Assembly: GCA_905178155.1 (NCBI GenBank)
Contig: CAJINV010000005.1
Location: 9,025,957 to 9,089,956 of the forward strand
DNA: 64,000 nt
Origin: Amoebophrya sp. A120
Taxonomy: Eukaryota; Protista; Dinoflagellata
Reading direction: 5' to 3'
The notes under the pieces were generated by a model that searched no databases, was not told where the DNA came from, and saw only the letters and a list, made by a program, of their open reading frames with translations. A program made the translations under genes and the position numbers. Below, one piece after another: positions 4,875 to 49,703 of this stretch. The first letter of the stretch is position 1, and the number at the start of each line of letters is the position of its first letter.

Positions 4875-7800
4875 TAACTCGGGATTTCGGAACAGCAAAT
4901 CAATGACCGACCGCTTGTCGTAGGAAGTGAAGTCGGATAGGTATCACGTTGTGGAGAAATTTCTTTTCGTGGAACTTGTCATGCGTCTTTGCATGATAGT
5001 TGAGGTGATTTTTATCTTTTCTTTCTGTTCGGAAAATTGCATGACAAACAATACCAGGCAAGCACACTCTGCATGACAAGCTCCACAGCTCTAAATCGAA
5101 TGATTTTCTTTGTGGATAGAAACTCGATATCGTGGACGGTGGCGGGTCGCATCGTTTTTGAAGATCGAGTATGGAAAGAAAAAAGTCTGTGAATTTGTCA
5201 TGCGAATAACGCCATACCCTTGTCAGGCCTGCACTGCTCGTCGCGCATGACAAACAAAGCCAATTCCTTTCCTTCTCATACACCGTTCTCCGATTCGCGA
5301 CCTCCTCCTTTGCTTCGTCGATACCTTTGATTTTTTTTTGTGAATTCCGCATTACAAATCCACCTTTTCTTCGGGACTTATTTATATTTTTGTGAATCCC
5401 GGATTACAAATATCCTCGTTCTACTTAGTACAACGAGGTTCATCTTGTCCTGTAACTGTCGTGCGTGTACTAGTTCCGCAAATCAGAAGTCGAAAACTTT
5501 CATCTATTCTGCATATCAAAATGATCGCTGTTGACCAACAATCTGAATCAACACTCTGTATACAGTGCACGAAGTATTCCTCTAAAACTTTTGGTGCGGG
5601 TGTGTATCCAAGAAAAAAACACCATCACGATCACACTTAGGAGGTTTTGCATCAGAAATTTGTCTCGCATGACAAATTTTTCTTGTGTTGCAAAAACACA
5701 AAGGGAAATCGCCTATAGCGCTTGACTGTGATGCATTTCTGCGCATGACAAAAGTTTTTGCATTGCAAAAATGTGCAAAAGTGATTGTGATGGTGTTTTT
5801 TTTTTGCATAGTGTGTTCGCCAGTGTTATCTCCAATTTTTGCACTTTTCGCTTCTCCGCTTGGACTAGCTGTATCCTGAGCAAAAACGTCCTCACACCAT
5901 GGTCAAGATGGAGAACCTACTAGACAAATCAGCTAGCTTTGGGCGTTGCCCATGACGAGTTTGGCCTCGTAATGTAGTCTTGTTTAGCTAGTTCAGCAGC
6001 ATCACAGACGTAGCCTATTATGCTGATTGGAGCATCACAAATTTCAAATCACGCTCAGAAAATGCTTCTCATGGGACTACACATGAGAAACGTTTTCAGC
6101 ATGCAGATTTGCATGACAACTATGGGGGGGACGTTTTTAAATAGGATAAGCTGCGTCAAATTCTTGATGGTCTTGCGATACCTTTTGGTTTTTGATGTAG
6201 ACAAAGACGTGCGATCGTCGGAGGGGATGCATGATAGGTCAAACAAGTTCTCAACAACAGCCGTCTATGCAAAATCTCCCATTTACCTCTCCACCATCTT
6301 TTCAGGCATGTTGCTGTGGAGTGGCATTCCCTGCTCCTCTATGGATTGCAAATATGTCTGGGTCTGGAAGGATGCGAACCCGTAATGCTGGTCTTGCACT
6401 CCTGTGAAATCTGTGTTGCATGACCAACAAAAGTGGCAGCCTCGCACGTGGTTATACAAAACGACAACTTCTCATGATGCGGAGTTCGTATGATAAAGCG
6501 CTGTGCAGACTTGTCATGCTTTCCTGCATGATCAGGAAGTGTTTTCATCATGCACATTTTAGCATCACAAATTTCCAGACCCAGACACTTTTGCATTTGA
6601 TATCGTCATATTCTTCTTCCCCCTCCTTCTCTTCGCCAACACCTGCCCCGCCCTGCTCGAGGTTTTATGCATTTTTGCAAAATTTTGATCGCAGTATCTT
6701 AATCTTATCGGTTGCCTTCAACTTGATCTATGAACTGCATTACGAGTTTTGGCAAGGAAAAACAGGCTTGTCCTAAGTAGTTGTCAGTGCCCTCAAGGGA
6801 AGACGACCTTGTGCAAATCCAGAAGGAGAATTCACTAAATCGAAGGGCAAACTAGCATTTTGCAAGTCCTAGATTCTCTAACGCCGCCATCTCCGCTTCC
6901 ATTCCGTTCCCTTCCGCCCCAAGTGTGCCCTGCTCAAATGTTACAATCTCAAGCGTTGCAATAGAATTTGGAAATCTGTGATGCAAGAAGTGCATGATCC
7001 AGCCAAGTCTCATAGGACTGAGCATGACAAGTTCCCGAGTCCCAAACCGCATTACAATCTGCCAAAATTTGCGTTGCAGAAAGTGGAATGGTCTGCGAGT
7101 CTGTCGTGCTCATTATGCAAGACGAAATCCAGATTCTATTGCAACGTTTGAGATTGTAACGTTTGAGCAGGTCATACCCAGGTTCCCCAGCATCTGGCTC
7201 CCGCTGGCGCCGCTCAAATCCTGACTGGTTGAGGTGTTGTTTCCCGCCCCGGCCGCCGACGCTGCCAGCGCTTCGTAGGCGTGCTGCTGCGCTCGCTCCA
7301 CGGAAAGCCGGAGCGACCGGTTTTGTGCCTTGGATTTTTTGATCTGGTCCTCGAGGAAGGATCGGTCGTCATCCAGTTGGTCAGCTAGTCGTTTCCATTT
7401 CTCCAGTTCCGTGAGGTATTTTTTGCACAGCTCGTCTAACCGCAGCGCTTCCTTCATAAACCACCTGATAGCTTCTTTGTTGTTGGACAAGGACAGCCAC
7501 AGCCTAGTAAACCAAAACATAGAATGTCGCTCATTTCAGAAGTTCTTTCACCTGATCTGAAAAAAAACCTGCCTGTGCAAAAAAGAACAAGAAAATTCTT
7601 CCAAGTATGTAAGTACCTCAGCTCCTTTTCCAGACTCTGTATTTTCGCTTGCCTTCTCGATTTCGTCTCGTGCTCATCCGCTTTCAATTTCAGGGAGTCG
7701 AACTCTTTCTGCACTGATATCATATCCACAGTAAATTCCCTGTACACGTACAAATGCATGACAAAACTTGCCTTCAATCCTAGTGTAGCGTGACAAGTTG

Positions 7801-8463
7801 GACACTGCAAGTTAGCGAAATTTGTCATGCATTTTGTACGTGTACAGGAAATTTCCATTGCATATATCATGTGCGTCTTGTACGCCAGGAAAAAATCCCG
7901 CTCGTGCGCTATTGTGAGGAAAAAAGTCCCCACCCCCGCAGTTCAAGAACAGATGGGAACTTTGCATCACAAACCTAGACGTTTTGGGAGTCAGGCATGA
8001 CAAGTTGCGGTCCGTAGTGTACTCAGTGCAGGCTAGCAAGGACAGCCGCATCAGAAATCCATCTGCTTGTCCTGTTGAGAGCATTACAAATGCCAAAACA
8101 CGATTAGAAACAATAACAAATGCCTCTCATGGGGATGCGCACTACAAATGTTCCTGTAGATGCAAACCCGCATGACAACTTTGGGGTGAGGACGCTTTTA
8201 CTCAGAATATGCGCTTCCAGCAGTGCGCCGACCCGGTCATCGAGTGTGTCGGCGAGTTTCTGCAGCTCCGTATGGACGTTTAGAATCTTGCCTCCCGCGT
8301 TGTTCGGGAGAGAGTCTAACAGCTCTTCCCTTGCTTTCGCTTTATTTACCGCTTTGGGGTCGAGGCGGAGGGCGGTCAGGAAAGTTTCATTCGGGTTGTT
8401 TTTCAGCAACGCAGTGACAGAAGCTGCGTCCGGCAGCGGCGCCAGGGCGAAGTTGTCGGACAT
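4875..8463 (-). CDS. Coiled-coil hypothetical protein (multi-exon; 3' end uncertain)
   Basis: Exons such as MSDNFAL...LLEAH|ERDFFLAYKTHM|...EFDSLKLKADEHE...LEKEL|RWFMKEALRLDE...; DFTSYDKRSVIDLLF near 4890-4935; interrupted by TIR elements and GT-AG introns. Confidence 0.6.
5605..5810. mobile_element. TIR introner, family D-like
   Basis: AAAAAAACACCATCAC/GTGATGGTGTTTTTTT; TSD GTGTG. Confidence 0.88.
5872..6148. mobile_element. TIR introner, family C
   Basis: TSD AGCTG. Confidence 0.88.
6340..6602. mobile_element. TIR introner, family A
   Basis: TSD TCCTC/TCGTC; reverse-complement homolog of 48442-48703. Confidence 0.88.
6924..7176. mobile_element. TIR introner, family E (GCTCA..TGTTACAATCTCAAACGTT long TIR)
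   Basis: about 50-bp TIR; TSD CCAAG/CCCAG; left end TGT. Confidence 0.82.
7723..7864. mobile_element. TIR introner, family F (short)
   Basis: CCTGTACACGTACAAATGCATGACAAA inverted; TSD TATCA. Confidence 0.85.
7910..8209. mobile_element. TIR introner, family C
   Basis: TSD TGCGC. Confidence 0.88.
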
Positions 8464-8470
8464 GATTGCA

Positions 8471-8729
8471 TATCAAGTGCAAAAATGTCTGGGTCTGCAA
8501 GATTTATAGATTTGTCATGCTTGTCTAGCATAACCAAAAAGTTTGTGATGCGTGTCCAAGGAGAGATCCTCTTGCCTGTCATGCAAAAACGCAGTTTGTC
8601 ATGCGAAAAACGCAACGCAAAGAAGCGCAGATATTTATTCTCATTCTTGCCTGTGCATTACAGGACATTCACTATTCCCAGCAACGTAGCATTACAAGTT
8701 TCCAGACCCAGACATTTTTGCAGTTGGTA
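8471..8729. mobile_element. TIR introner, family A (probably in a 5' UTR)
   Basis: TSD TTGCA; right end GTA. Confidence 0.85.
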
Positions 8730-9900: not shown

Positions 9901-12900
9901 TTAATCCACCCCGTTCTCGTTGCGGCTGCTGTTGGTCGAGCTCCGCTGCTCAGAGGAGAGCAAGAAGCTCAAACTTGTTGGTATGCCTTGCTCAGATGTT
10001 ACTATCTCAAACGTTGCAGTAGAATATGGCCATCTGTGATGCAAGAAGTGCATGATCTAGCCTACTCCCATAGGACTGCGCATGACACGTTCCGGCGTGG
10101 TCCCAAACCGCGCTACACAACTCTGGCGACATTTGTATTGCACAAAGTCGAACACTTTGCGAGTCTGTCATGCTCATTATGCAAGACAGATTCCAGATTC
10201 TAGTGTAACGTTTGAGATTGTAACACCTGAGCGGGTTATAGTCGGCGCCGCGGTGGTCTGGGTCGGGTTATTGTTCATACCAGCATCGTTCTTGAACATG
10301 GACACCGGCGCGTTGGGATTCATCGCGACAAAACCTGGCTGGTACTGCTGCTGTAACTGTTGAAATTGCTGGTGCTGCATCACGCTCGGTGACTGTGGTT
10401 GCGAGTACCTGGGATGAATTAGTTCGCGCAATCGGTTTGACCGACAAGCAGTAACTTCTCCTACCTCGTCCACGCAGCGAGCAAGAGAGCAGTGAACAAC
10501 ATGAGACGAGGGTTGATGTACTTGCTACGCATCATGCCCCGCATCACACGACCAGAAAGGAAGCAGTAAACAGCTTCTTAGGTATGAGTAACTACTTAAC
10601 TACCCGACGGCCTGCTGGGCGGACGAAGAAGCACCCATCATCGGTTGCTGCAAAAACATCGCGTGCTGCTGGTTGTTTCCAGCTGTCCCCGTTACCGGCG
10701 ACTCCACCACAAATCCCGGATTCCTCTGCCGGGTGGGGGTCGTGCCGGCGTTGTTGATCGGTTGCTGTAGCTGCATGTTGGTCGGTTGTGGCATTAGTTG
10801 CTGGTGCTGCGAGTGCTGCATTAAAACGCCGCCCGGATTAGAAGAAGTGTTCATCATGTGCACCATCGCAGCAGGATTACTGTTCATCCCATGAAGTTGT
10901 CCATTCACGCTCGCGGATACGAACTGCTTCTCCAGCCCCTCCATCTGCGCGCCCAACCGGGTCTCCACCTCCGTCAGCTTCGCGGTGAGTTGCAACAGTT
11001 TGCTATCCCCCTTCTCCTGCTTGGTGCCCTGTTTCTTGCTGCTATCTTCAAATTTGGTTTCTATCCTGATTAAAAACGTCCCCACACCAGAGTCAAGATG
11101 GGGATTTTGCAACACAAACCTAGGGGCTTTGGGAGTCACGCATGACAAGTTTCAGTCCGTAAGGTAGTGCAAGTTAGCAAGGAAAGCCGCATCACAAATC
11201 GATCTGCTGGTCCTGTTTACAGCATTACAAGTTCCCAAACATGATTGAAAATGTCTGTCATGGGGTTGCGCATCACAAATGTTCCTGTCATGGCAAATCT
11301 GCATGACAACTCTGGTGTGGGGACGTTTTTACACAGGATAGTTTCCAGTTCCGTGTTTGTCTTTTCGATTTTCTCAAAAATCTCTAGAAGTGCACAAATC
11401 CCCCTCCCCCTCATTTGTATGGCATGAACAGCAATACAAACACCAGCGCACATGGAGCCTATGCATGACAAATCGGAATCTAAGTACTTACCTTATGTAG
11501 TCCTGATTGGGCTCCCGGAATTTGTCATGCATAACAGTGTTACAAGGGAACAACTGGCTTTGGGATTTTGCATGAGAAATGAGAACGAGGGGGAGTTGTG
11601 CACTGTCATAAAATCTGCTCGGAAAATTTTCCAAACACCTCCGGGATGACGTTCATTTCCAGTTTTTCGCACTTCGCGGCCAGAGACTGGATATGCATTG
11701 CAACAGCATCGTAGCCTAATGAAAACTGCAATACAACTTGGCAGCTCAGCATACGAATTTGTAACGCGGATTTACGTTAACAACTAGATTTGTGATGCAA
11801 AACTACAATTAGCAGTTTTTTAGTACGATGCTTTTGTAACGCATACTGTAGTTTGTCAGACAGTTCCTGCTCCTTGAAGAGCCGCAGTTGGTCGTCGACA
11901 AATTTTCGCACCTTGGTGTTATCAAATGCGAAAATGTCTGGGTCTGGAAGACTGCGAGATTTGTCATGCTTGTCTGGCATGACCACGAAGTTTGTGATGC
12001 GTGTCCAAGAAGAGACGCCCTTGCCTGTCATGCAAATAAAACGCAGCTTGTCATGCGAAAAACGCAACACAAAGAAGCGCAGATATTTCTCATGCTTGGC
12101 TGTGCATTACAGAGCATTCACTACTCTCAACGCAGCATTACAAGTTTCCAGACCCAGATCGATATTTGCATTTGATAAGTGTTCATTTCTTGTAAGTTGC
12201 TGTTCAAGTGGGCGATATCCTGGGAAACCGCGATCTCGACCGCTTTTTCCGTGGAAGATTGCCGCTTTTCCATCTGTTTCACCTTGTTCAGGAATTGTTG
12301 TTCCAATTTTGAATCGATCGCTTCGAGTTTCAAACCTTGTTCCTTGCTCGCCTTTTCCAAATTTCGCATATTACAGTGAAACATGCCCCCTCCCCATATC
12401 AAAACGCAAATCTGTGATGCAGATTTGTGGTCACAAATCAGCTTTGTGATGCTGGAAGGCAAAAGATGCGGACTGTAGTGCTGCCTAGCGTGGGGAAGCC
12501 TTGCAGCTCCAGGATGACAGGAGGCAACTGGAAGTGGAAAAAAGCATGACAGATTGCCTGCAATTTGGGGCGCAGCTTCGTCTCTTGGCCTTCTAGCAAT
12601 ACAAGTCGATTTGTGTACTCAAATACAGCATCACAAATTCCGTTTCCGATATGGGGTGGACGCTTTTTTCACTTTGATATCGCAGGTCGTGCTTCTCCAC
12701 TTGCTGGATGGAGTTCTGCAGTTTCTTCACGTTCTGATTCAGGGAATTGCTCAAGTCCGTTTGGTATGCATTGCAAATATGTCTGGGTCTGGAAAAATGC
12801 TAGGTTTGTCATGCCGTGCTAGCAGGACTGTCAAGTCTGTTATGCAAGGTACCCAAAACTGCCACTTTTGTGCCAACATGCAAAAACCAAGTTTCTGATG

Positions 12901-15900
12901 CAGAATAGGCAACACCTAGCGACTCAAAAACCTGTCATGCTGAGCCGTCACTTCTGGCGTTCTCTTGCTTCGCCAACCAGCATCACAAGTTTCCAGACAT
13001 CCAGGAAGAATTGCATTTCATATTTGGTTCTTCGAGATTTCCTCGGCGAACTTCGCCTCGACGTTACTGCCCCAATCCTGGAATTCGTTGGTCATCTGCA
13101 GTTTCACATGCTCAATCGCCTGGTTGATCTCTTCCACAATTTTTTGCCGTATGGGAGTGAAGAATCTGCGAGCAGGTTGAGGGCTTTTAACATCCGTTGC
13201 AGAGTAGTGTGCTGGAACGCGCGCATGACAGAACGGGGCTCTCATGCAAAGGATGCTACACAAAACCTACGACAAAAAACATCTCCATCCCATACGCAGT
13301 TTCGAAGTCTGGTCGGACTGCTTTTCCTCGATCAGATCGGTGATCTCGGCGTTTTATGCATTGCAAATACGTTTCGGTCTGGATTTGTGATGCAGAATTG
13401 CAAAGTTTAGCAGGATCTCTATTGTCGATGAACAGGACTGGCTAGTAGTAGTTTTTTCGTCGTGCTGGAAGGTAGTTTGTAATGCGACTTAGGAAGTAAA
13501 GAACCGTAATATGAAGCTGCCTCGCAAAACTTGTCATGCAGTAGTGAAGTACAAAGCCCCTCAGAAGTCTCATGCAAGACTCAGCAACACAAATTCTTTG
13601 CATCGTTCGAGACAAAGATCGCTATTTGCATTCGATACGTTCAGCTGCAGTGCGTTGGACTCGTGTTGCCGCAGCGAATCTTGCAGCCGGTTCTCGGACA
13701 GTTTGACCTGATAGTGTGTCGTTGTCATGCAGGATGAGCATGAGAAACACCTTTACATTTGCGAATTCAGCATCACAAAGCCTGCTGCGAAGAAATCCGA
13801 CTTTAGCTACTTCCACTATTGTACCTTCTCCATCTCCTCCACCACGGAATCCAATTTGAAGTCGATCTGCTGGTGCAGATTGTTGCTCGATTTCTTCAAT
13901 TCGGAGTAAAACAGCTGTTTGTTTCCCTCCACCGTTTGCTGCGTCTGCTTCCAGCGAGTGTCGTTGTCCGTGTGTGCTTTCGCGATTTTCGCAGTCAAGG
14001 TGTCATTGGTCAGTTGCACCTGGTCGGCCAATTTCCCCTCGATGTGCTTCATGTCTTTCGTCAGGCCCGGTAGGATCTTGTCGAACAACTTCGTTTGCAA
14101 ACTGTCGTGCGTGGTCTTCCAACTCGTGTTAGACGTCTGCAGGTTACTGTCGAAGTTCTGCTTCACCTGCTCCAATTCGCTGCTCACTTTCAGCTGCAAC
14201 TGGTTCATCGATTCCTCCGTGTCTTTCTGCAGCAAGTTGAAGTCCAGTTTGACCGGGTTTACCAAATCGTGCTTCACGAACTCAATACTCCCCTGCACCC
14301 GCTGCTCCGTCCGCTCCCACTGTCTTTCCAGCAGTTCCTTTGCCTCCTTCCCGGCGAGTTCGAACTTGGAAGTGAGCAACGTGTTGTATCATATGCAAAA
14401 ACGTCCCCACGACCCCATAGTCAACATGGGAATCTCGCAACACAGGTCGAGAAGTTTTGGGAGTCACGCATGACAAGTTCGTCTCTGTATTGTAGTGCAG
14501 TTTAGCGAGTGCAGCAGCATCACAAAGCCATCTACTCATCCGGTTTACAGCATTACAAATTCCAAAACGCGGCTGGAAATGCTTCTCATGGGGATGCGCA
14601 CTACAGACATTCCTGCGATTGCAAATCGCCATGACAACTATCGGGTGGGGGCGTTTTTACTCAGGATATGTTGAACTTCTTATTCACCAAATCCTGCTTC
14701 TGCTTAAACTGGTCGAAAGTGGTGAGGATATTCCCGATCTGCTATTGCAAGGAAAAATCCCCCCTCCCTTTATAAAGGCATCCGTCGCGAAATTTGTGAT
14801 GCAGATTTGTGGCCACAAATCATTTTTGTCTTACAGAAAGGCAAGCGGTGAGGGATGCGCCGCATTATGGATGCGGTTTGTCATGCTGCTTGGCCTACGG
14901 GGCAGGCGTTTCCCATGCTAAACAGCTAGACCCTTGCGCACCTAAACAGCCTAAGAATCTGCCCGCAATTCCTTACAGCGAGAGAGACCACATTTGTGTA
15001 CGCAAATCCAGCATCGGAAATTTTCGCTGATTTTCTTTTGATATGGGGAGGGGGATTTTTTCCTTCTGATATCTGCGCTTCGAATTTTTCCTTCAGGATT
15101 TTCATTTCCTCCCGGACGTTTAAATCCAGCAATTTGATATGGATTGTAAAAATGTCTGGGTCTGGAAGAATGCATGTTTGTCATGCTTGTCTGGCATGAC
15201 TCTCAAATCTGTCATGCACGTTACCCAAAAGCGCCATTTTTCTGTCATGCAAGTAGTAGTAGTAGTAGTACCATTTAACTCCTGGCGGGTCGGCGTGTGA
15301 ACAGATTTAGCCTCTGCCAATACCTGGGCGTTAGAACAGATTTAGCCTCTGCCGATACCCCTAGGTGGAGACACGGTCCACATGCAGAAACGCAGTTTGT
15401 CATGCAGAATAGGCAGCACCTAGAAGCTCAGAAACTTGTCATGCTGAGCCAGCACTTGCGGCCTCCTCATGATACGCAGCCCAGCATCACAGGTTTCCAG
15501 ACCCAGACATATTTGCAATTGATATTTGACCTCCTTCAGCAAAAATTCGTTGTTCGATTTCGCGTCCGCCTTCATTTCCACGATAATTTTGTTCTCCAGA
15601 GTCGACAACCGATCGTTCAAATCCTTGAAATCCTGGGACTGCTTCGACTCGTTCTGCTTGGAACTCTCGGTCAGAAAGTTTGTTTTCCGCTCCAGCAAAT
15701 CTTCGATCTCATCCACCACTTTCCGGTCCAACACCCGGTCTTCCTCCATTTTGCGAAAGTTGGCGGTCAGCAGCCGGATTTTCTTCTCCATGCTATCCGT
15801 CAAATCGGTCAATTTCAGTTTGTTCTCCTTCCTCAACTCGTCTTCGGACAGCAAAATCTGCTTTGCCAGTTCTTCTTTCGACACTTGGAGTTTGATCGAC

Positions 15901-18892: not shown

Positions 18893-18897
18893 TTAGC

Positions 18898-19110
18898 TAT
18901 CGCAAGAAAAAACTGCTTCACTGACGTGAACTTGTGATGCATAGAATGGAGCACAGAACTATTTGTCTTGCTACACCTGCAAGGTATTGGATTTTTAAGC
19001 GTGTTTTTCCCTTAAAGAGCGCGCATGGCAAATTTTCTGTGTCATGTGTAGCAAACTTGTGAAGCGAATCTTGCAAAACCATCACAGTGAAACAGTTTTT
19101 TCGTGGGATA
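18898..19110. mobile_element. TIR introner, family D-like (probably in a 5' UTR)
   Basis: AAAAAACTGCTTCACTG/CAGTGAAACAGTTTTTT; TSD TTAGC/TTATC. Confidence 0.8.
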
Positions 19111-21630: not shown

Positions 21631-21921
21631 TCAACATTGTGCATTATTTGCGCATTTTTCTTCAATGCGCGCACTGCTTTTGCCTTCTGCACTTATCTTT
21701 TGCAGAATTTGCAAAAATCTTTCCTGTGTGTCATCAGCACCAGATCGTCATCGTATAAATCAACTTTAAATTCGCATCAACTTTTTTTGAGTATGAAAGA
21801 GCATCAACTTGTCTCGTAAACATCGTCAACTTATTCGCATCGTTACACAGCAGGATGTAGTCACCACAACTTCCCATAGTTCGCCGTCGTACTAGTCCAT
21901 CCGCATGAGAAGTTTTTTCCT

Positions 21922-29805: not shown

Positions 29806-29951
29806 CCCATCTTGCAGTGACGCTGGTTGCGCAGGAACTTGGCGTCCATACCCTTGGTGGACATCTTCTTCGGGGTGCGGGTCTTCTTGATCCCGTTACG
29901 GTGGGCCTTGCGACCCTGGTTGTGGTTGGTGTGGTTCTTGGACTTGGCCAT
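29806..29951 (-). CDS. RPL29: 60S ribosomal protein L29 (eL29), main exon; short 3' exon unresolved
   Basis: [23 protein letters not shown]...[13 protein letters not shown]. Confidence 0.95.
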
Positions 29952-38800: not shown

Positions 38801-41800
38801 CGATCTCTTGATCCCGAGAATTGATCACCATTCCGTCGGTGAGAATTCCGACCAACTCGTAGATCACTTTCCGGAACTGTTGCTCGGTTCCAAACTCGTG
38901 CTCAATTTGCTGTAAAACCCGCTGCGCTAAGAAGTCACAAGTGTCGAAAAGCGCTTTGCCCGCCAAATCCTTCTTCGGGTTTTTCCGCGACTCGATCTTT
39001 GCCAGTTCCAAAGTCTTCAGCAAGAAATTCGCCAAAACCGTGACGTCGTTCGGAAGGGCGTCGGGTGTGTGTGGCTTCAATTCCGGCTTGCACAGCTCCT
39101 GCTTCAGTTTCTCCTTCAGCTCATTGTCCAGTTTCGTCGCAAGCTTCTCCAAGAAATCCTGCACCAAGCCGGCGTCGATATCGGAGGTTGGTTGCCGGGT
39201 GAGATTCGCGGACAGATTCTGCAGAAAAGTTTCACACCTCCTGTCAATCACGTCCTTGATGACATCATTCAACACCCGGATGGCGTCGTTCTCTGGGTAG
39301 GATTCCAGCCCCGCTAACTCCTCCACACTGATGTTATCCGGGTGGCTCGCCTATCAAGTGTAAAAGTGTCTGGGTCTGGAAGATTGGAAGATTTGTCATG
39401 CACATCTGACATGACCCATGACGGCTGTGATCTATGCCCTAGCATCACAGATTTTCTGAGTGCGTCTTGATGCATATCCTGCATGAGAAATGCCCTCTCG
39501 TCCACGTGGCAAGGACTGGACTCCTATTGCCTGTCATGCAACACAGATTTTTTTAGAATCCAAAAATAGCATTACAAGTTGCATCCTTCCAGACCCAGAC
39601 ATTTTTACATTTGATATCGCCATCAGTTCGATCTGATCACCCACGTTGCAAACCAATTTCACCGGCGCGTACCGCCACCGGGCGTTCAAGGCCCGCTGCA
39701 TTAATTCGATTTCTGAAGATCGGTGGACTTCTAGCGCCAAAGCGTTCATGGCCTCGGCGACCAGCACGTCGACAGAGGCGAGTTTGGCCTTCATCAACTT
39801 GTGCGAATTCATCCCCCCTAAGATCGTGTTCTCTTTCGCGACTTTCACACCCACTTCCACCTTCCGGAGTAGTTCTAAATCCACGTTTTCCAACTTCGTC
39901 CGTTTAATAATGTCGCACTGGCCCTCGACGAAGGCCTGCACGTAGCGACAGGCTTGCAATAAAGACATTTCGTCGACGACATTGGCGTTCAACGAGTCCT
40001 GGAAATCCTCTAGGACCTCCCCATCCACGGAATTCGTCCTCTCAATCAACGTGATGACCGTATTCGCCAACGATTGACTCGTTTGGACCGCCTCGCGGGA
40101 TAAGGGGAATTGGCAGTAAGCCAACCCCCTGCCGATGATGGACGACGCGCATCCAGCCGCCATGTCGTGGATCGCACCTAACGCGTCGATTTCCGTTTCC
40201 ACTATTGGTAACAATCTCGACGGAATATCCGCGATCTGCCGGACCGCGACTGTCACTTTAGGGACGGCCAGCCACTTGCTGTCATCCGGCCCCGGTTGGG
40301 TGACAACGACGTTGAGACCGTATAATGTTTTGGAAGTGGCGATTAAGGAAATGTTTCGCTCCACCAAATCTGGCGGGACGAACTGGGTCACGACTTTGTG
40401 GACGGAGGAAACCAGATGTCGCGCCAACGCGTCGAAATCCGCGCACTGGATGTGGAGACGGTCGTGGTCTAAATATTTCGCGACGTCGACAACCTCATGG
40501 ACTAATTGTTGGCAGTCCTTGGCGTTGCACTTTAGCATGCCGTGGGTGGTGGTGCCAAAGCCTGGGCGTAAGACGTCCATGTGGTCACCCAGTTTGAAAT
40601 TGCGAACCAGCATGTCGGAGGTGATCGGATCTTTGTGCATGCCAACCCGGTGGAGGCGGCGGTTTCCCGCGTTCATGTCCCGGAGAACGGCGATTCCGCG
40701 GTAGTCGCGACGGGAGAGGCCCTGATAGTTGTAGAGGTTTTTTGAATATCATCCCTTGGCTTTGATGCATGACAAGTTCTCGGAGGACTTTCATTTTGAT
40801 CATGAAACTTCTGTTGCAGGAAATTCCGAAAAAACTCAAACTTTGTGATGCAAAAACCACACTATCAATACCGATTTCAACGTCTTCAACTCGTCCTCTT
40901 CAATTCCCTCCGTCCAGCTCTGCAGCATGTTCCGCCTGAACATCCCGTGCATGTCATGCCTTTTATTCGCCAAAAACTCCGTCCTCTGCCGCAGCCGCTG
41001 CTCGCCCCGCCAGTACATGCGGCGGACGACCGCTTTCATGGCGGCACGTTGTAAAATTTCTTCCAACAGCCCGACATCCCCCTCATATCAACTGCAAAAA
41101 TGTCTGGGTCTGGAAGAATGGAAGTTTGTTATGCTTGTCTCACATGACTCTTAAATTTGTCATGCACATTACCCAAGAGCCCCATTTTGCTGTCATGCAG
41201 AAACGCAGTTTGTCATGCAGAATAGGCAACACCTCTAAGCTCAAAAGCTTGTCATGCTGAGCCAGCATTTGTGGCCTCTTCATGATACGCCACCCAGCAT
41301 CACAACTTTCCAGACCCAGACATTTTTACAATCCATACCTCAGAAGCGGTTGCAATGGTACTGCCCATAAACTCCTGCAGCGCCGCGCGGCCGAAGAGAG
41401 CGACGATCCAATATCGCAATGACAAATCCCCCCTCCCCATATTGACGCGGTAGGTTTTCGCAAATTTGCGTTGCTGATATGTGACCACAAATCGTGTCTG
41501 TGTTGCAAGACGGCAACTCCACCGGCTCCGCTGCATTATGCAGGCGGTTTGTCAACATGCTGTTAAGCGCTACAGCACGGACGTTTTTCATGCTAAAAAG
41601 CGCCTAGATTAAAGCCTCTCTACTCAGGCTTGATATGGGTCATCTGCAGTCCTGTCCAGCAAGACAAATCTGACTTGTGTACTCAAATCCAGCATCAGAA
41701 ACTTCGTTTTCATATGGGGAGAAGGGATTTTTCCTTTTGATATCAAAGCCTTGACCGCCACGCCGGTTTCGTGTTCCAATAAATCCGCGACGCCGAGCGC

Positions 41801-44800
41801 CCGGAGGTGTTCCGCGGTTCCGCCGAGAAATTTGCTGGCCCCGACCCGGGCGTGAATAATCAGCGCCTCCGCGACGGTGTGGAGGTTCAGATTGGCCTTC
41901 GCCTTGTCAATCGCGCCGGAGTACAGGGCTTGTCGTGCCGCGAACCGACCGATTTCTTCCAAAACGGTAATGTTCGCGTCGGGCGTGACCTGTTTGTCAT
42001 CGGCAATACCGTCCTTCGGAAACATCGGGTCCGTCCCCTGCACCTGCGCGGCACCTTCGGCCGCCGCGACAACCGACGCGGCGCCGGACCGGGATAGTAA
42101 GTCCGCAAGCCTTTCGTGCGTTTGGAACTTCTCACCAAGAACTCCCGCGATGCAGTGCTCCGCGATCCCCTCGGAGGCGAGGCGGAAATCCGGTTTGGAA
42201 GCCATGTCCTTGGTCCGCAGAGCCTTGGACAGCTTGAAGTTCGTCACATTGTTGGAGGTGGTCGGCTTCATGACCTTACAATGCCGGGCGATGTCCGTGT
42301 CTTCCAACGGCGTTTTGTACTGCAACTTGCTCAACCCGGCGCCGGTTAAACCCGCGCCCAGAATCTGCTCATTGGACATTCCCATCGACTCCATCGCGTT
42401 TTCAATATTTTCCTGCTCCTCCCCCCGCAGCTGCGCCATCCGTTCCGGCTCGATCAAACGAAAGCTCGCGTCGGGCACGTAGGTCACGTCCGCCGCTTGG
42501 TACAGTGCGGATAGCTTTTATGCAATACAAATATGCCCCCACACGACCCAGTTTTTGTCATGCAAGAAGTACTTCAGCATTGTCTCCTCTGATGCGAAAT
42601 TTGCAAGGCTGCCTTCGCTGAGACCAAGACGCACTATCAAAATCTTGAATCAATTTGTCTTGCGACCCGTGCATCTGCTTATCCTTTCCAGAGGCTGCTT
42701 TTTGCAATACAAATTTCTGAGTCAGAAGGCATAATTGCTTTGCATAACTTCCCGTCCCCGAAGACATCAGAAGAACGACTCGGCTTGTAGAAGTTATCGA
42801 TGGAATTGTCCTATGCATTGCAAAAGTATCGTACTCGTACTACTTGCGTTTCTGCATTACAAATCTTTTTATCAAGGCAAATCCGCATTACAGCTTCAGT
42901 TTGTAGTGCTAGGTGAATTTGTAATGCATTTATACGAGTACGATGCTTTTGCAGTTCATATGTCCTGGGCGTGTTTGTCCTTTTCGGTCAAAAACGCAAC
43001 TTCGTCCCGGGAGTGGTCGGACTCGATCACCATCACGTCGCCGAGTTCCGGGTCGACAATCATGTGGCAGAGGCACTCTAAAAGCCTATCATCCCGGTCC
43101 ATCTCGTGCTCCATCACGAGCAGTTGCTCCGCATCTTTTAGGAATCCGGTGCAGCATAAAATGTCGACAATCCCACCCTCATCAAGTGTCATGATATCGT
43201 CCATGTGGATCATCACGATTTTCATCTGCTCGTGAATCGTCCCATCGTTATCTTTCTCCGGGCCCAGTAAGTCCAACGCGTCCTCAATGTCGCAGAACGA
43301 GGAAAACATTTCCAACAAATCCCTCGTTTTACTAACTTTCGTCTCGTCCGGGATCACCATGACAATGTCCCGTCGCGTCCGGTGCGGCTCCGTCCCGGGG
43401 ACCCGGGGCAAATGCCGGTCCTGACTCATGCCGACCACTTCTAACAACTGTGTCCGATCCCCCGCCACCTGCACGATCGTGTGGTTGTCGCGAGATTGCA
43501 AGATCGAGACCTTCGCGGGGGGGGAGTTCTGCTCCTTCTCCATGTCCCCCATGTTGTCCGCGCCGATTTCTCCGGTGGCGAGATATCGCGCTTCCGCGGG
43601 TAGTTTATCCCCACGCGTGCACGAAATGTCGGTTTGCGACTGCTTGGCCGCGCGGCCCATGAGGTCTTGCAACAAGGCGGAGTCTTGTGGTTGCCCGGAC
43701 AGGTTGTCGTTTTTCATTTTTTCGTCCCTTTTCCTCCTTTGCTCCGGGTCGATGTCCATCTCGACCCCCGGCATGAGTTCGATCGACCCCCAGAGTTGCG
43801 CCCCTTTTACCCGCAGTTGCATCCCCAACTCCTGCACGAACTCGTTCTGCCAGGAACTGTTCAACAATAACGCGTCGCGGATGTGCAACCGTCTCACTCT
43901 TTCCTCCAGCATGTTGCCGAAATGCATCAGGATTCATCAAATGCAAAAGTGTCTGGGTCTGGAAACTTGTGATGCTGGGTGGCGTCTCATGATGAGGCCA
44001 CAAATGCTGGCTTAGCATGACAAGTTTCTGAGTTTCTAGGTGTTGCCTATTCTGCATGACAAACTGCGTTTCTGCATCACAGAAAAATGGAGCTCTTGGG
44101 TAACGTGCATGACAGATTTAAGAGCCATGCCAGACAAGCATGACAAATCTCGCAATCTTCCAGACCCAGACATTTTTACAGTTGATAGGATTTCGCTCGC
44201 CACAATCTCCGGGTTGGGGACCAGTTGCATTTGCGGCTGCTCTATCAAATGCAAAAATGTCTGGGTCTGGAAAGTTGTAATGCTAAAAGTGGATGATAGC
44301 CGGACTGCAATACGCAGCCAAGCATGACAAATTTTTGAGCGGCTACGTGTTGCGTATTCCGCATGAGAAACTGCGTTTTTGCATGACAGATAGGAGAGCC
44401 GGTTCGTTCCCACGCATTACAGATTCTCGTGTCATGTCAGACATGCATGACAAGTCGCAGAATCTTCCAGACCCAGACATTTTTACATTTGATATGCTCT
44501 AAAATTCCGATTTCCAGCGCGTCGAGGAGATCGGAATGGAGTTTCCACACGAGGAATTTCAATAAGTGTTCCGCCCGTTCGTACGCCAGATCCGCGTTGT
44601 CTTTGATCTCTTCCTGTTTCAGAATCTCCTCCTCGATCATCTTCTTATTCTCCGCATTGGTCTCCATAGATTCAACCAAATCCCGGATTAATTTGCTCAT
44701 CACCGCGACTAGAGTATCTAGTGTCGCCAACCGGCAATGCTCATACCGATTCGTCCAGGTGACCCGATCGACTAAGTCCACATTCGGGCTCTGCATCCGC

Positions 44801-47800
44801 TCCAAGTACTGCGCATGGTGCACGCAGAGGGTGGCAAGAGTGACGGAAGCAATCGCTTTGGCGTGGTGGGGCATCAGCTCGATGTTCAATTTCTTCACAA
44901 GTGCATCTAATTCCGGGCGGTAGCCAACCCCGGCTTCGACGTAGAAGCAGGGCTTTTCGCAGACCGAGCGGTGGGCGAGGGAAGAGACGACCTTTGATAA
45001 AGTTTTTTTTTTTTCGTAGGTAGCTTTGCATATGACAAATAGTATTTGGATTTTCAGCATCAGAAACTTTGGCCATGCAGAAAAAAAGCAAAATTTGTCA
45101 TGCAAAACCCACTAAAAAGCCCTATACCTTCTCAAACTCCGCCACGACGTTGCTTTTCCGGGCTTTGTCATCCCAAATCCGCTTTTCAATTTGGTACAAA
45201 ACCGCCTCCACCAAAATGTCTACGTCAGATTGAAACCGCCAGGAAATCGGGGTATGCATTGCAAACATGTCTGGGTCTGGAAACTTGTGATGCTAAAGTG
45301 TGAATGATGGAAGCAATTCCGAATGCAGCCAAGCATGACAACTTTCCACTAAGCTTTCTGATGCGTAGCCCGCATGAGAAGCTGCGTTTTCGTATAGACA
45401 AAAGGGGCTGCGCATTTTGTTGGTCATGCAACACAAATTTTACAAGAATGTGAGACCTGCATTACAAGTTCGAACTTTCCAGACCCAGACGCATTTGCGG
45501 TTGATACGGGGTTCTGTCTTCCAACTTTTCCACCTGCATGGGTAGCTGCGTGTTCTCCGTCGTGACCTGGTATAGCAAAAATACCGCGTCGTTGATTTCC
45601 AAATACAATTTCTCCCGGATGGGGTCGAAAAGCGACTCATCCAAATCCATTTGGTTAAAAGTGTTCCGGAAAACGTTCAACAGATCGGTCGCACGCTTCC
45701 GAGAAGATTCGAGAATCTGGTCATGGAACTTCGCCCGCGGATCCGTGTATTCGTCGTGCTTGATCGCGTCGTAGTGTTCAAAAGCGGCGACGACGACCAG
45801 TTTCAACGTCACGTGCGCCAGAACCGCTTCTAAGAATTCTCTCTCGCTTGTTCTCGTGTGCCGCCCGATTTTCCGCTCGTCGATCATGAGTTGCACGATT
45901 TTCACTGCCGACTCGCAGATGTATTGGAAGGCGACTTCGGCCTTGGAGAGAACATCCTCCCGGCCCCCCTTGATCCCGAGCTTGACGACCACTTCGGTCA
46001 GATCTTGGTGGTAGACCGCGATCCGATCGAGTTTTTCGTCGATCGGCACGTGTATCAACTTGAAAAGTGCCCCGCTGCCCCAGAAGTGCAAACAATTTCT
46101 GATGCGAAATTCCCGAATGGAAATCAGTTTTGTCTTGCATGAAACGACCACGAGTGAGTCTCGTCCCCGATCTAGATTCTAGTCCTGTAGAGCATCTCTC
46201 GCATGACAAGCCCCACTGTTGCTGGGCCTTTTTGCAACACAGATTTTTGTGCTAGAATTCCTCAATGAAATACTTAAATCTGTGTTGCGGGAATATGCAA
46301 GATGGAGAGTTTTTCCATTCGCAACCTTTGCAATACAAACACTTTCCCTTTCTGGGGTGGGAGCTGCACTTTTCATTTTGATAACGTGCTCTACGTCTTC
46401 ATCTTCCACATCGGACATTTCCGCGCGGTCCGCCGCCGCTTCCGTCTCCACCCGCGTGATCTCGTTTTCGGATTGTTTCAGGGTATAATCCAACGCGTTG
46501 GAAATATCTTCGACTAAGCATTTCGGGTGCTCGCGACAGAGATTGTACAGATTTTCACCACAACTGTACAATTCCGAATAATCGTATTCCCCCTCGTCGA
46601 TCGCGGCGATCATTTTCTTCATGGTCCCGTCGGTTTTCAACAAATGGATCACATCATCGGCGATCTCCTGCTTCACCAATTCGGGGTGACTTAACGGCAA
46701 CGTCGAGTCAAAGTGCGGCGGGTGCTGCATGAGCTTAGCCACCTGCTCGATGACCAGTTGTCGCCTCACGTCGTCGAGGAAATATCGGTTGGTCGCTTCT
46801 AGGAACATGTTGGCAAGTTGTGTCCTTCGTTGGAATATCAAATGCAAATATGTCTGGGTCTGGATGAAACTTGTGATGCTAAAACATGGATGAGCCTGGT
46901 GCTTTCAAGTCCAGCCAAGCATGACAGGTTTATTTGGCGCCGACTGATGCGTATGACGCATGACAAACTGCGTCTTTGCATCACAAAAAGGCAAAACTTT
47001 TGCTGGCTATGCAACACAAATTTTTCAGGAATGCTAGACCCGCGACACAAGCTCCACTTTTCCAGACCCAGACATATTTGCAATGCATATGGAAAGTCGC
47101 AACACAAACGCCCTGCTGGTCCTCCGTTTCCTTGTTGAAAAAGTCGCGGATTTGCAAACCCGGCTGGCGCTCGTAGGCGGACTGATATTGATTTGGAATT
47201 GGTGCATGACAAAAACAGGGTAATGTGCGGATTGTCCTGCATGACACATTTCGAAATTTTTGGAAACCAAAACAACCTCTACTCGGCATTTCTGCATCAC
47301 AAAAGCGAATAAAACTACTCATGATTCATGGAGCAGATTACGCATGACAAATAACCCATAGTACCTTCCCCATGCTGCCCCGGGAATTTTCGCTGATCGC
47401 TAAACCGCCACCCTGCGTCGCGTACACCGTCGCGCCATCACCGATTTTTCTATGCATTGCAAAAGTATCGCTCTAGTAGAAATAGCAGCACAAATTTTTC
47501 CTGAAGGAAAAATGGAATTTGTAATGCTGAATGAGCTCAGGAACCAGGTTTGTCATGCACGACTGCAATTTCTACGAGTGCGATACTTTTGCCTTTGATA
47601 TTTCCGACCGCGGAGCGATTTTTTCGGTTTGCCCTTCCCCGGCACTTGGTTCAGTTTCTCCGCTTGTTTGAAGTATTTGATCCGAGAAAACCGTTCTTTC
47701 GGGTTTTTGTACAGAAAATCCCCGCCGTCCCCGACCGCGGCCTTCCAATCCACCTCGTCGTACAACCAGGACAACGACCCCGCGTTTTTGTCCTTCACGC

Positions 47801-49703
47801 CAAACATGTTCATGTCCTTCCGAGCGCCGTAGATATCCACGCCGAGGTTGTTCGTCTCGTCAAACAACTTCGGGTCCACATCGATCAGGACTTTCTGGTT
47901 CTGACGAAGCTTCTCCGCTTCCTGATTGATGATCGCGGAGGAATCCCCCGCGGAAGTGTCATCCACGACGGAGTCCGCGTCCTTCGCATTTGCCATGTAG
48001 TCCCACTGGCGGACTAATTCCGATGGCTTCCCATCCTGCAAATAGCTCAAGGTCAACTCGGCCGGGTGCTTTAACGGTAACTCCTGGGCCTGCTCCGTGT
48101 GGTCGGTGAAGACCCAGTGGGTGCCGTCCTCGGATTTTTTGATCGTTTGCTGGATGTAGGGGGAGATCTTCGTCGCGGAGTCACTCGCGCGTTTGATGTC
48201 GGACCGTAAGTCGGAATCGTCGAAGAGACCTTTCACCCCGCTTTTCGGATCGGTGACAACAGACGAGGAACTGTCGTCGGTGATAGAGCCCAACGCGTTC
48301 TTCCCGTACGGCACGATTTGGAACGTCCCCTGCTCGTTCTTGTGGATCTCCTCCGATTGGAGTAACGACGTTTCGAGCGAAACGACATCCAAAGTCGCGA
48401 GTCTCTGCACCAGCTCCGGTTCGAGAAAGGCTAAAGGGCCTTATCAAGTGCAAATATCTCTGGGTCTGGAAATTTCAATTTGTGATGCTAAAATGTGCAT
48501 GATGAAAACGCTTCCTCATGCAGGAAAGCATGACAAGTCATCTGCGCAACGCTTTATCATACACAGTTCGCATGACAAACTCCGTTTTTGTATGACGTGA
48601 GAGGCTGCCACTTTTGTTGGTCATGCAATACAGATTTCACAGGAATGCAAGACCAGCATTACAAGTTCCAACTTTCCCGACACAGACATTTTTGCATTTG
48701 ATAGGCCCTTCACCGTGACAAACTTTTTCCCAGTAGAATCCGGCTCGGTCATGTGCTCCTTGTCCTTTCTTAACAACACCGCAATCGAGGCTTTCACCGC
48801 CTGGATGCTGTTCTGGTACTCGAATTTGTCCGCGATTTTCGGGTGCTGCCGCGCGATCTCGTCGTAGATTTGCTTCACCAAAGTTTGCAGAAACGGGTTG
48901 GCTTTTTTGAAAGCCGAGTCCCGATCTTTGTACTGGGGCTTCGTGCCTTCCGGGACGAACCCGAGTGGGCCGAAGAGCATCATGTGCCACAAGCGGGAGG
49001 CGAGCGTCGCCAAGGCCATTTCCAAATCCTTCAGCTCCGAGTAGAGCAACAGCAAAATCCTCGCCGTGGCGGAGATCGCCTCCTTCCGGTCGGACTCGAT
49101 GTCGTCTAATAGAGTAACCGTCATGGCCAACGGTAATTCCAGCAGGTGTTGCGACTTTGCCGAGTCGAAGGGGTGGAGATTTTCATTGGACTGTAAAAAG
49201 CCGTGGATCGTCTGCACCCTCGCGTAAAACATCCCCGTTTGCGGGTCCACTGGGTTGACCTCGACGACTTCCCCAGGCTCGATCACATCAATGACCTGCT
49301 TCGCGGTGTCGACATCATACAAATCGAGCTTTGTCGTCGCCAAACGCGGTTCGACCTGTTGTAAGTAAAACCGCATCATCGAAGTTTTCGTCTTCTTAAT
49401 TTCCGAGGACTTCAAGCCCTGATCGGTTGGCCTGCGGAGTCTTCCCTCTTTATCCGCGGTGGAGCTGTGGCGGGATTTGCGCTCCGCCGGTTCGCTTGCT
49501 TCCGCAGCGGAACCGCGAGTAGCGCCGAGCGTCGCAAACCCGCCTGCCATGGTGCCGGGTTCGTTGCTCTGCGCCGGCCCGGCGGAGGAGTAGCGGGGCG
49601 AGTCTTTCTTACTGGAATCGCTGGACTGCTTGGATTTCTTCTTCGACGAGCCGCTGCTGGAGGAGCTGCTGCTCGACGAAGAGGACGAGGAAGAAGATGA
49701 CAT
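35852..49703 (-). CDS. Very large hypothetical protein (about 22 exons, mostly TIR introns)
   Basis: Starts with poly-Ser ORF 48704-49703; long GC-rich open exons (47601-48436, 42961-43929, 41743-42513, 39617-40690, 38760-39346) each end at a TAT...ATA element; could be more than one gene. Confidence 0.6.
35919..36175. mobile_element. TIR introner, family A
   Basis: flanks GCCTG/GACTC. Confidence 0.82.
36493..36772. mobile_element. TIR introner, family A
   Basis: TSD TGCCG/TGCCC. Confidence 0.85.
37244..37522. mobile_element. TIR introner, family C
   Basis: TSD TAATC. Confidence 0.9.
37568..37829. mobile_element. TIR introner, family A
   Basis: TSD AACGC/AGCGC. Confidence 0.88.
38172..38450. 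mobile_element. TIR introner, family C (opposite orientation to 37244)
   Basis: TSD TCGAC. Confidence 0.9.
38502..38759. mobile_element. TIR introner, family A
   Basis: TSD GCGGT/GCGAT; right end GCA instead of ATA. Confidence 0.8.
39352..39616. mobile_element. TIR introner, family A
   Basis: TSD TCGCC. Confidence 0.9.
41086..41337. mobile_element. TIR introner, family A
   Basis: TSD CCTCA. Confidence 0.9.
41412..41742. mobile_element. TIR introner, family B
   Basis: TSD TCCAA/TCAAA. Confidence 0.88.
42519..42746. mobile_element. Degenerate TAT...ATA intron, family B-like
   Basis: TATGCAA/TTGCATA; flanks GCTTT/ACTTC. Confidence 0.6.
42812..42960. mobile_element. TIR introner, family G
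   Basis: TSD TGTCC. Confidence 0.88.
43935..44187. mobile_element. TIR introner, family A
   Basis: TSD GGATT; left end CAT. Confidence 0.88.
44243..44494. mobile_element. TIR introner, family A
   Basis: TSD TGCTC. Confidence 0.9.
45253..45506. mobile_element. TIR introner, family A
   Basis: TSD CGGGG. Confidence 0.9.
46053..46383. mobile_element. TIR introner, family B
   Basis: TSD ACGTG. Confidence 0.85.
46836..47089. mobile_element. TIR introner, family A
   Basis: TSD TGGAA. Confidence 0.9.
47451..47600. mobile_element. TIR introner, family G
   Basis: TSD TTTTC/TTTCC. Confidence 0.85.
48442..48703. mobile_element. TIR introner, family A
   Basis: TSD GGCCT/GGCCC. Confidence 0.88.

What the first reader, a model, noticed from the sequence alone, without database searches (positions are those of the whole stretch)
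6340..48703. The introns work in either orientation within same-strand genes
Seen: all host genes are on the minus strand, yet homologous elements occur as reverse complements of each other: 6340 vs 48442, 12765 vs 18173, 41086/15138 vs 32975/43935 (family A), 37244 vs 38172 inside one gene (family C), 9982 vs 16027 inside one gene (family E). Established: spliceosomal introns are polar (5' site, branch point, 3' site). Inference: all information needed for removal is symmetric, so it is end- or structure-based, or it acts on double-stranded DNA.
Basis: partly seen in the sequence, partly recalled or inferred. Interest (0 to 1): 0.85.

Follow-up and report, generated by a model that had tools for sequence, protein, structure and literature searches.

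The report
Reversible transposon-derived introns, no GT-AG
Short transposon-like inserts with mirror-image ends interrupt the genes of what is likely an Amoebophrya algal parasite, facing either way about equally often, and are likely cut out of the RNA by their ends; this intron type is already described, but the machine that removes it is still unidentified.

Summary
The window has 55 elements (142-479 nt) with TAT-N7-AAA inverted ends and a 5-bp target duplication. All eight named pairs are reverse complements, 53 of 55 elements lie in minus-strand coding frames, and removing element plus 5 nt restores frames of up to 993 codons. In 164 strand-called elements from a related assembly, orientation is near 50:50 (p=0.51), including inside KIN17 and SNF2 genes. 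GT/GC-AG occurs at chance level, and the two ends show no 5'/3' difference, branch-point bias or G-U bias. They match the published Amoebophrya A120 introners (PMC7789003), and two-way introners are known elsewhere (Polarella, Aureococcus). The upstream duplication copy seems to be the one kept (32:17, p=0.044), which points to RNA. No RNA reads were examined, so splicing is inferred here. Not found in print by my searches: the lack of orientation bias and a one-sided target motif.

The parts
188..437 (.). TIR element, family A2, orientation 1
   Evidence: TSD 4/5
485..746 (.). TIR element, family A2, orientation 1
822..1133 (.). TIR element, opposite in orientation to 46053
1274..1563 (.). 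TIR element, family D (CCCCCT-type ends), orientation 1
1900..2111 (.). TIR element, no relative in the window; 94% opposite-orientation relative in L075
2212..2497 (.). TIR element, family C, orientation 1
5605..5810 (.). TIR element, unassigned
5872..6148 (.). TIR element, family C, orientation 2
6340..6602 (.).
6924..7176 (.). TIR element, family E, orientation 1
7723..7864 (.). short TIR element, unassigned
7910..8209 (.). TIR element, family C, orientation 2
8471..8729 (.). TIR element, family A1, orientation 1
9982..10240 (.).
11062..11340 (.). TIR element, family C, orientation 2
11383..11610 (.). TIR element, unassigned
11692..11845 (.). short TIR element, unassigned
11920..12177 (.). 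TIR element, family A1, orientation 1
12369..12679 (.). TIR element, family D, orientation 1
12765..13022 (.).
13355..13637 (.). TIR element, unassigned
14387..14668 (.). TIR element, family C, orientation 2
14743..15071 (.). TIR element, family D, orientation 1
15138..15524 (.).
16027..16288 (.).
16362..16618 (.). TIR element, family A2, orientation 1
17491..17969 (.). TIR element, family A2, with a nested insert of about 220 nt
18173..18426 (.).
18510..18832 (.). TIR element, family A2; shares 54 nt with the insert in 17491; host strand unclear
18898..19110 (.). TIR element; host strand unclear, possibly outside coding sequence
21994..22143 (.). short TIR element
22972..23116 (.). short TIR element
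23440..23726 (.). TIR element, family C, orientation 2
27414..27625 (.). TIR element, unassigned
27692..28003 (.). TIR element, family D, orientation 2
32975..33225 (.).
33813..34088 (.). TIR element, family A1, orientation 1; TSD 3/5; weak coding support
35919..36175 (.). TIR element, family A1, orientation 2; TSD 3/5
36493..36772 (.). TIR element, family A2
37244..37522 (.).
37568..37829 (.). TIR element, family A2; 95% opposite-orientation relative in L081
38172..38450 (.).
38502..38759 (.). TIR element, family A1, orientation 2; added by hand (one end diverged)
39352..39616 (.). TIR element, family A2; junction lies inside the alignment to homologue P0001
41086..41337 (.).
41412..41742 (.). 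TIR element, family D; its TSD copies differ at position 3 and the homologue has the residue of the upstream copy
42519..42746 (.). TIR element, unassigned; TSD 3/5
42812..42960 (.). short TIR element
43935..44187 (.).
44243..44494 (.). TIR element, family A1, orientation 2
45253..45506 (.). TIR element, family A1, orientation 2
46053..46383 (.). TIR element, opposite in orientation to 822
46836..47089 (.). TIR element, family A1, orientation 2
47451..47600 (.). short TIR element
48442..48703 (.).
35855..49708 (-). predicted single long host gene with 18 TIR elements and 3 GT-AG introns; no Pfam family above cut-off in the exons scanned; part is homologous to P0001 (32-38% identity)
9904..16722 (-). 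predicted host gene with families A, C, D and E elements in mixed orientations (frames of 454, 382 and 119 codons joined by predicted GT-AG introns)
40722..40871 (-). predicted canonical GT-AG intron without TIRs; P0001 aligns on both sides of it
44992..45127 (-). predicted canonical GT-AG intron
47182..47364 (-). predicted canonical GT-AG intron
13708..13824 (-). predicted canonical GT-AG intron

Best explanation
These are miniature inverted-repeat elements with a 5-bp target duplication that sit in exons in either orientation about equally often and are likely removed from the pre-mRNA, together with one duplication copy, by a modified U2-type spliceosome that likely reads only their orientation-invariant ends. 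Shown: the anatomy; gain with a 5-bp duplication (an empty paralogous site); near 50:50 orientation; frame restoration by removing element + 5 nt; chance-level GT/GC-AG. Inferred: insertion by an unidentified transposase acting in trans; removal at the RNA level; the terminal repeats bringing the two ends together; a fixed cut late in the duplication. The most likely cut is one base before TAT and four bases after the closing ATA, so that the intron starts N-TAT, like the GTAT/GTAC donors of this genome's ordinary introns but with the +1 G and the final AG no longer required. The ends are symmetric on DNA and can still be read as polar on RNA.
For: Ends identical in both directions: 5' and reverse-complemented 3' logos do not differ at any of 24 positions in 203 elements (lowest p 0.08); departures from family consensus 173 vs 174. 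Orientation chi-square 7.2, 8 df, p=0.51 in related loci; best hits 88 same and 87 opposite. Same-family elements in opposite orientation split a KIN17 gene (one inside the WH domain, at profile positions 25/29) and a SNF2 gene (806 codons, collinear with homologues at three junctions). An empty paralogous site carries one TSD copy. Predicted GT-AG introns lie in the same genes; GTAT and GTAC are the commonest donors (20 + 20 of 117). Upstream copy kept: homologue residues at 2 of 2 informative sites (41412; L020 element 3809) and codon usage 32:17. Farhat et al. (PMC7789003, sections 10-12 and 16, supplement parts 2-3) report RNA-seq-supported removal of this element type and a nearly complete spliceosome. 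Their Table S4 lists only NT-xx as predominant A120 sites; 44 of 203 elements give a motif from that list (nine predominant motifs plus GT-TG) at the one-base-before-TAT register, against 0-15 at the other five.
Against: No trace of preference for spliceosomal dinucleotides: G at +1 65 vs 65.7 expected, AG 23 vs 21.7, GY-AG in any register 18 vs 16.6 of 203. No branch-point or polypyrimidine bias. Neither end is more conserved than the other. U1 snRNA was not detected in A25 or A120, and A25 repeats start TTA rather than TAT (PMC7789003), so the GTAT likeness may be coincidence. Table S4 is weak support, because annotated A120 families show mixed GT/AT/GC/GA and AG/AC ends, as an aligner choosing among equivalent registers would give. 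At TSD position 5 codon usage favours the upstream copy 7:4, not the downstream copy that this register predicts. The GT-AG intron set is a noisy prediction. No RNA was examined.
Confidence: 0.5

Rival explanations
1. Removal is at the RNA level but non-spliceosomal: a dedicated nuclease/ligase recognises the terminal stem and cuts at fixed distances from it, as proposed for Euglena nonconventional introns.
For: 198 of 201 sense RNAs are predicted to form at least 10 terminal pairs, z about -9 in both orientations. Complete indifference to G and AG. U1 not detected (PMC7789003). Euglena introns with inverted ends are thought to use separate factors (PMC12501133 passages; PMC11282704 section 6).
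Against: No sign of selection on an RNA helix: G-U vs A-C mismatches on the sense strand 117 vs 119 and 36 vs 41. The two ends of one element pair no better than ends of different family members in 11 of 12 groups. Antisense strands fold about as well. Pairing is expected from the transposon origin alone.
Confidence: 0.35
2. RNA polymerase skips the element: it meets a DNA hairpin or cruciform formed by the repeats and re-anneals its 3' end at the second duplication copy.
For: Explains the indifference to orientation and dinucleotides, and the apparent retention of the upstream copy. In the window, TSD mismatches fall off toward the 3' positions (7,4,6,2,2).
Against: That gradient did not repeat in the related loci (15,6,9,11,9). 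Elements with only 2-3 of 5 matching bases sit in open frames, one of them (3/5) in the conserved SNF2 gene. I know of no precedent at this scale (own knowledge).
Confidence: 0.07
3. The elements are excised from double-stranded DNA before expression, like ciliate internal eliminated sequences.
For: Perfect sequence symmetry and transposon-like ends are compatible with it.
Against: Elements are present in two DNA assemblies. Only 1 of 369 junctions was found element-free among the DNA held, and that one is a diverged paralogue; this covers only about 0.5 Mb. The duplication has an arbitrary 5-bp sequence and exactly one copy must go. Retention seems tied to transcription direction. No germline/soma nuclear dimorphism is known in Amoebophrya (own knowledge).
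Confidence: 0.04
4. Only one orientation is removed; copies in the other lie in dead genes or opposite-strand transcripts.
For: One window family is 8:0 in one orientation. Most window proteins have no recognisable family. One 4-mer (TGTG vs CACA, 54:20, best of 116 tested) is strand-skewed inside elements.
Against: The 8:0 family is 29:20 in related loci. 0 of 55 elements are in plus-strand frames. Both orientations lie in intact KIN17 and SNF2 frames and in frames of 926 and 993 codons.
Confidence: 0.04

Closest known systems
Amoebophrya sp. A120 introner elements (Farhat et al. 2021, PMC7789003; also catalogued as TIR DNA introners in PMC12130899)
   Same: Ends start TAT, then seven variable bases, then AAA; direct repeats at the borders (5 bp in the Fig. 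S19 legend); about 240-260 nt; many families; non-canonical sites; co-oriented host genes. The best named protein hit of a related locus is Amoebophrya sp. A25 at 67%.
   Different: No difference in kind found. The parts of that paper I read do not state orientation relative to the host gene, a fixed cut register or a target motif.
Polarella glacialis and Aureococcus anophagefferens introners (bioRxiv 2020.10.14.339549; Huff et al. 2016 seen only through PMC10228655 and that preprint)
   Same: TIR/TSD transposons that become introns, several classes in either orientation.
   Different: There the sites are GT/GC/GA-AG, carried by the element or recruited from the TSD, and one orientation is favoured. 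Here GY-AG is at chance level and no orientation bias is detected.
Euglena nonconventional introns (PMC12501133 passages; PMC11282704 section 6)
   Same: Inverted ends, direct repeats at the junctions, likely MITE origin, coexistence with GT-AG introns, unknown machine.
   Different: Different end motif (CAG/CTG and pyrimidine|purine junctions, as the review gives them); excised as circles there, unknown here.
Fritillaria borealis non-canonical introns (PMC11282704 section 6; PMC13326754 passages)
   Same: MITE-derived introns with TIR and TSD handled by an altered U2 spliceosome.
   Different: They keep preferred sites (AG-AC, AG-AT) and U1; here the terminal dinucleotides appear free.
Ciliate internal eliminated sequences (recalled, no call)
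   Same: Symmetric transposon-like ends inside genes.
   Different: Those are removed from somatic DNA at TA; here the duplication is an arbitrary 5-mer and the elements stay in the assembled DNA.

Membership tests
Amoebophrya A120-type introner | inverted repeats starting TAT, seven variable bases, then AAA | tested here: met
   T/A/T at end positions 1-3 in 53-55 of 55 elements and A at 11-13 in 49-53 of 55; same in 203 elements
Amoebophrya A120-type introner | direct repeat of 3-5 nt at the exon/intron border | tested here: met
   5-bp repeat perfect in 37 of 55 and in 247 of 319 found without using the TSD; no other length from 3 to 8 fits
Amoebophrya A120-type introner | repeated families interrupting coding sequence, non GT-AG | tested here: met
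   six window families; GY-AG possible in 3 of 55; frames restored
Amoebophrya A120-type introner | junction supported by RNA-seq reads | not tested
Amoebophrya A120-type introner | host is Amoebophrya | tested here: inconclusive
MITE / non-autonomous TIR DNA transposon | TIRs, constant-length TSD, short length, empty homologous site | tested here: met
   empty paralogue with one TSD copy
MITE / non-autonomous TIR DNA transposon | cognate autonomous transposase with the same ends | not tested
   no whole genome is held; elements longer than 800 nt were not sought
Canonical U2 spliceosomal intron | GT/GC...AG ends | tested here: not met
   18 of 203 vs 16.6 expected by chance
Canonical U2 spliceosomal intron | strand-specific branch point and pyrimidine tract | tested here: not met
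   YTRAY 33 sense vs 37 antisense; pyrimidine runs 14 vs 20 of 203
Polarella/Aureococcus two-orientation introners | G[TCA]-AG sites from element or TSD, with orientation bias | tested here: not met
Euglena-type nonconventional intron | terminal RNA stem | tested here: inconclusive
   predicted in 198 of 201 but no selection signature
Euglena-type nonconventional intron | excised as full-length circle without lariat | not testable with these tools
   needs RNA experiments
Ciliate-type internal eliminated sequence | absent from the expressed DNA copy | tested here: inconclusive
   1 of 369 junctions element-free in about 0.5 Mb of held DNA, and that one a paralogue; no DNA reads examined

The most novel reading that the evidence does not exclude
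This lineage has a splicing route that removes any insert bounded by the TAT-N7-AAA inverted ends, whichever way it faces and whatever its terminal dinucleotides. It cuts at a fixed distance from the paired ends, without a branch point in the interior and without U1: a second, non-spliceosomal or deeply rebuilt machine that makes transposon insertion into exons almost free.
Probability: 0.4. Interest if true: 0.8.

Novelty: already known. Interest (0 to 1): 0.42.

Why it matters
How Amoebophrya removes tens of thousands of non-GT-AG introns is an open question in the papers I read (PMC7789003, PMC11282704). The lack of orientation bias, and of any G or AG preference, narrows the answer: the signal must lie within about 25 nt of each end and read the same both ways, and the interior is dispensable. 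That gives cheap, sharp tests (junctions at imperfect duplications, lariat versus circle, end-swap reporters). If the route is portable, it would be a scarless, direction-independent intron cassette. The element class itself and two-way introners in general are already published, which caps the interest.

Tried and rejected
(1) Orientation bias: family A2 is 8:0 in the window but 29:20 in related loci; rejected. (2) Polar TSD: A at sense position 5 in 29 of 55 did not repeat (46 of 164); rejected. (3) Sliding junction with both TSD copies translated: differences were synonymous in 13 of 15 window cases but 18 of 50 in loci (neutral expectation 0.27-0.28); not replicated, and the window excess is unexplained. 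(4) Hidden GT/GC/GA-AG sites within the duplication: chance level. A wider search within 12 nt found frame-compatible GY-AG in 32 of 55 on the sense strand vs 22 antisense, but using such sites would add or delete residues, and homologues align without such changes at the junctions checked. (5) Exon-exon pairing of the flank motif: flanks pair less than shuffled partners (1.74 vs 1.89); rejected. (6) A shared TA at -6/-5 of ordinary acceptors, seen in a few window introns, was not enriched in 117 predicted introns. (7) Homologue searches with two window exons found nothing; Pfam gave no hit above cut-off for 14 window pieces; Rfam gave nothing; viral contigs hold no match to the end pattern. 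(8) PDB searches for KIN17 and cyclin junction residues were uninformative. (9) The first gene parse chained through intergenic DNA and was discarded. (10) Earlier findings of this scan: none returned.

Full report
What is in the window. A scan for inverted ends with a flanking 5-bp repeat gave 55 candidates. I dropped two (10003-10219, mis-bounded and replaced by 9982-10240; 17002-17401, spurious) and added 38502-38759, leaving 55 elements of 142-479 nt between 188 and 48703, 14,357 nt in all. A second search that ignored the repeat found 51 of these 55 and nothing new. Both ends read TAT, seven variable bases, AAA. The 5-bp repeat is perfect in 37, 4/5 in 15 and 3/5 in 3. Element length plus 5 is evenly spread over the three frames (19/17/19), and 45 of 55 elements have stops in all three sense frames, so they cannot be read through.

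The observation. Removing element plus 5 nt gives minus-strand frames of 993 codons (7 elements), 926 (6), 653 (2), 454 (5), 449 (3) and 382 (6). For elements inside these frames, removal lengths of another frame give a much shorter open stretch on at least one side of the junction, except near the ends of a frame. A codon model trained on other loci places 53 of 55 elements in minus-strand frames, none in plus, two unclear. An unnamed homologue, P0001, aligns across the junctions at 41412, 41086 and 39352 and on both sides of a predicted GT-AG intron at 40722-40871. The 9982/16027 'one gene' claim rests on a model only.

A larger sample. They hold 319 distinct elements, 247 with a perfect 5-bp repeat. 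A coding strand could be called for 164 of 319; the sample is enriched for family A by the pattern. Orientation relative to transcription was 29:20, 11:15, 7:7, 5:9, 4:4, 4:1, 1:4 and 3:2 (chi-square 7.2, 8 df, p=0.51). In the 83 most confident calls the two largest families were 14:11 and 2:7. A bias milder than about 60:40 would not be seen. Same-family elements in opposite orientation interrupt a KIN17 gene (L047) and a SNF2 gene (L020), with Pfam domains continuing across junctions and homologues collinear. A tandem paralogue without the element carries one copy of the 5-mer, showing gain with duplication.

Is there hidden polarity? In 203 elements (39 window, 164 loci) the 5' end and the reverse-complemented 3' end have the same composition at all 24 positions and the same number of departures from family consensus (173 vs 174 in 155 elements). 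GY-AG in any of six registers occurs 18 times against 16.6 expected. Branch-point-like words and pyrimidine runs are not strand-biased. One 4-mer is skewed (TGTG vs CACA 54:20, best of 116), which I cannot separate from small family imbalances. Both strands fold into terminal stems (198 vs 196 of 201), but G-U and A-C mismatches are equal (117 vs 119) and ends do not covary within families (11 of 12 groups), so there is no signature of selection on an RNA helix. The one polar hint is which repeat copy is kept. Homologues match the upstream copy at both informative sites, and codon usage favours it in 32 of 49 imperfect repeats (p=0.044), in both orientation classes.

Mechanism. Symmetry on DNA does not mean symmetric recognition: either way round, the RNA begins TAT-N7-AAA and ends TTT-N7-ATA. 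What the data do require is that the interior is not needed in a fixed direction; nested inserts in 15138 and 17491 agree. The host genes also carry predicted GT-AG introns whose commonest donors are GTAT and GTAC, so a spliceosome likely works on the same transcripts. A cut one base before TAT would make the element look like such a donor without the G. Farhat's Table S4 lists only NT-xx motifs as predominant for A120, and 44 of 203 elements give a listed motif at that register against 0-15 at the others. Annotated families show mixed ends, however, so aligner choice may explain this. I put a modified spliceosome at 0.5, a separate stem-guided RNA enzyme at 0.35, polymerase skipping at 0.07, and DNA excision and one-orientation-dead at 0.04 each. 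RNA reads were not examined, so all of this is inference.

What is known. Farhat et al. 2021 (PMC7789003; I read the abstract, sections 10, 11, 12 and 16, search passages and supplement parts 2 and 3; figures not seen) describe A120 introners with exactly this end motif, direct repeats, RNA-seq support and no detected U1. 'Strand' does not occur in the main text or supplement text, and the 'orientation' passages shown concern genes. Gozashti et al. 2025 (PMC12130899; passages, supplement rows; files 13 and 14 not searched) class A120 families as TIR DNA introners. Gozashti 2022 (PMC9860276; passages) allows opposite-orientation insertion in its method. The Polarella preprint (section 5 read) reports intron creation in either orientation, with bias and G[TCA]-AG sites; its journal version was not seen. 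Huff et al. 2016 was not held and is cited through PMC10228655 (passage). Euglena and Fritillaria are from PMC11282704 section 6, PMC12501133 and PMC13326754 (passages). PMC11453091 and PMC12005148 were seen as passages. Nine searches turned up no statement of orientation neutrality or of a target motif for Amoebophrya introners; subscription papers and unseen figures (Farhat Figs S19-S25) could hold one. The organism is inferred from the motif match and from a related-locus protein whose best named hit is Amoebophrya sp. A25; I did not establish the strain.

Side result. Empty sites carry a motif centred on C at +13 and A at +15 from the middle of the duplication: 282 and 304 of 556 half-sites in loci, 45 and 42 of 104 in the window. 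It sits on one side per site (both 34, downstream only 68, upstream only 68, neither 33; p=1.5e-6) and shows no link to transcription or element direction. It most likely reflects target choice by the transposase.

Verdict. A real feature of a known element class. Interest 0.42.

Noticed in passing
flanks of all elements, window 188-48703 and loci L001-L173: One-sided target motif, C at +13 and A at +15 from the TSD centre (about 31% of half-sites vs 7.8% background; both sides in only 8 of 203), independent of transcription and element direction.
   Followed up: partly
element interiors; also predicted GT-AG introns 40722-40871, 44992-45127, 47182-47364, 13708-13824: A repeated 8-mer, GCA(T/A)(G/C/T)A(C/G)A, at about 18 per kb in elements vs 1 per kb in exons, in both directions, with a 31-33 nt spacing peak; 50 of 117 predicted ordinary introns carry it too, so they may be old introners or share a protein-binding signal.
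   Followed up: partly
203 strand-called elements: Insertion phase is skewed: the TSD starts at the third codon position in 106 of 203 (p=5e-8); the skew persists without the flank C/G (23 of 47), so it is not fully explained.
   Followed up: partly
window 15251-15385 and 17534-17755 (54 nt also at 18551-18604): Nested inserts inside elements, with short tandem tails (GTA and TTGG repeats on the plus strand) that recall retroelement 3' ends (recalled, untested); no match in the fetched loci.
   Followed up: partly
window elements with imperfect TSDs: 13 of 15 differences between the two TSD copies are synonymous in the window but only 18 of 50 in related loci; unexplained.
   Followed up: yes
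window 53227-62001 and 62005-63558 (minus): Open frames of 2925 and 518 codons with no element and no Pfam match; no TIR element was found from 48704 to 64000.
   Followed up: no
window 28403 onward: A lone left end of the TATGCATTGCAAAAG type with no matching right end or TSD within 700 nt, possibly a decayed element.
   Followed up: partly
L009 near 2721 vs L011 3481-3742: Tandem paralogues differ in element content: one has an empty site with a single TSD copy, and what looks like the end of another element about 45 nt upstream.
   Followed up: partly
adjacent elements, window and loci: Exons between neighbouring elements are rarely under 32 nt (3 of 232 gaps), close to twice the distance of the flank motif.
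   Followed up: no
largest family (family A2 of the window): Imperfect TSDs occur in 10 of 35 copies of one orientation but 1 of 20 of the other; small numbers, untested.
   Followed up: no
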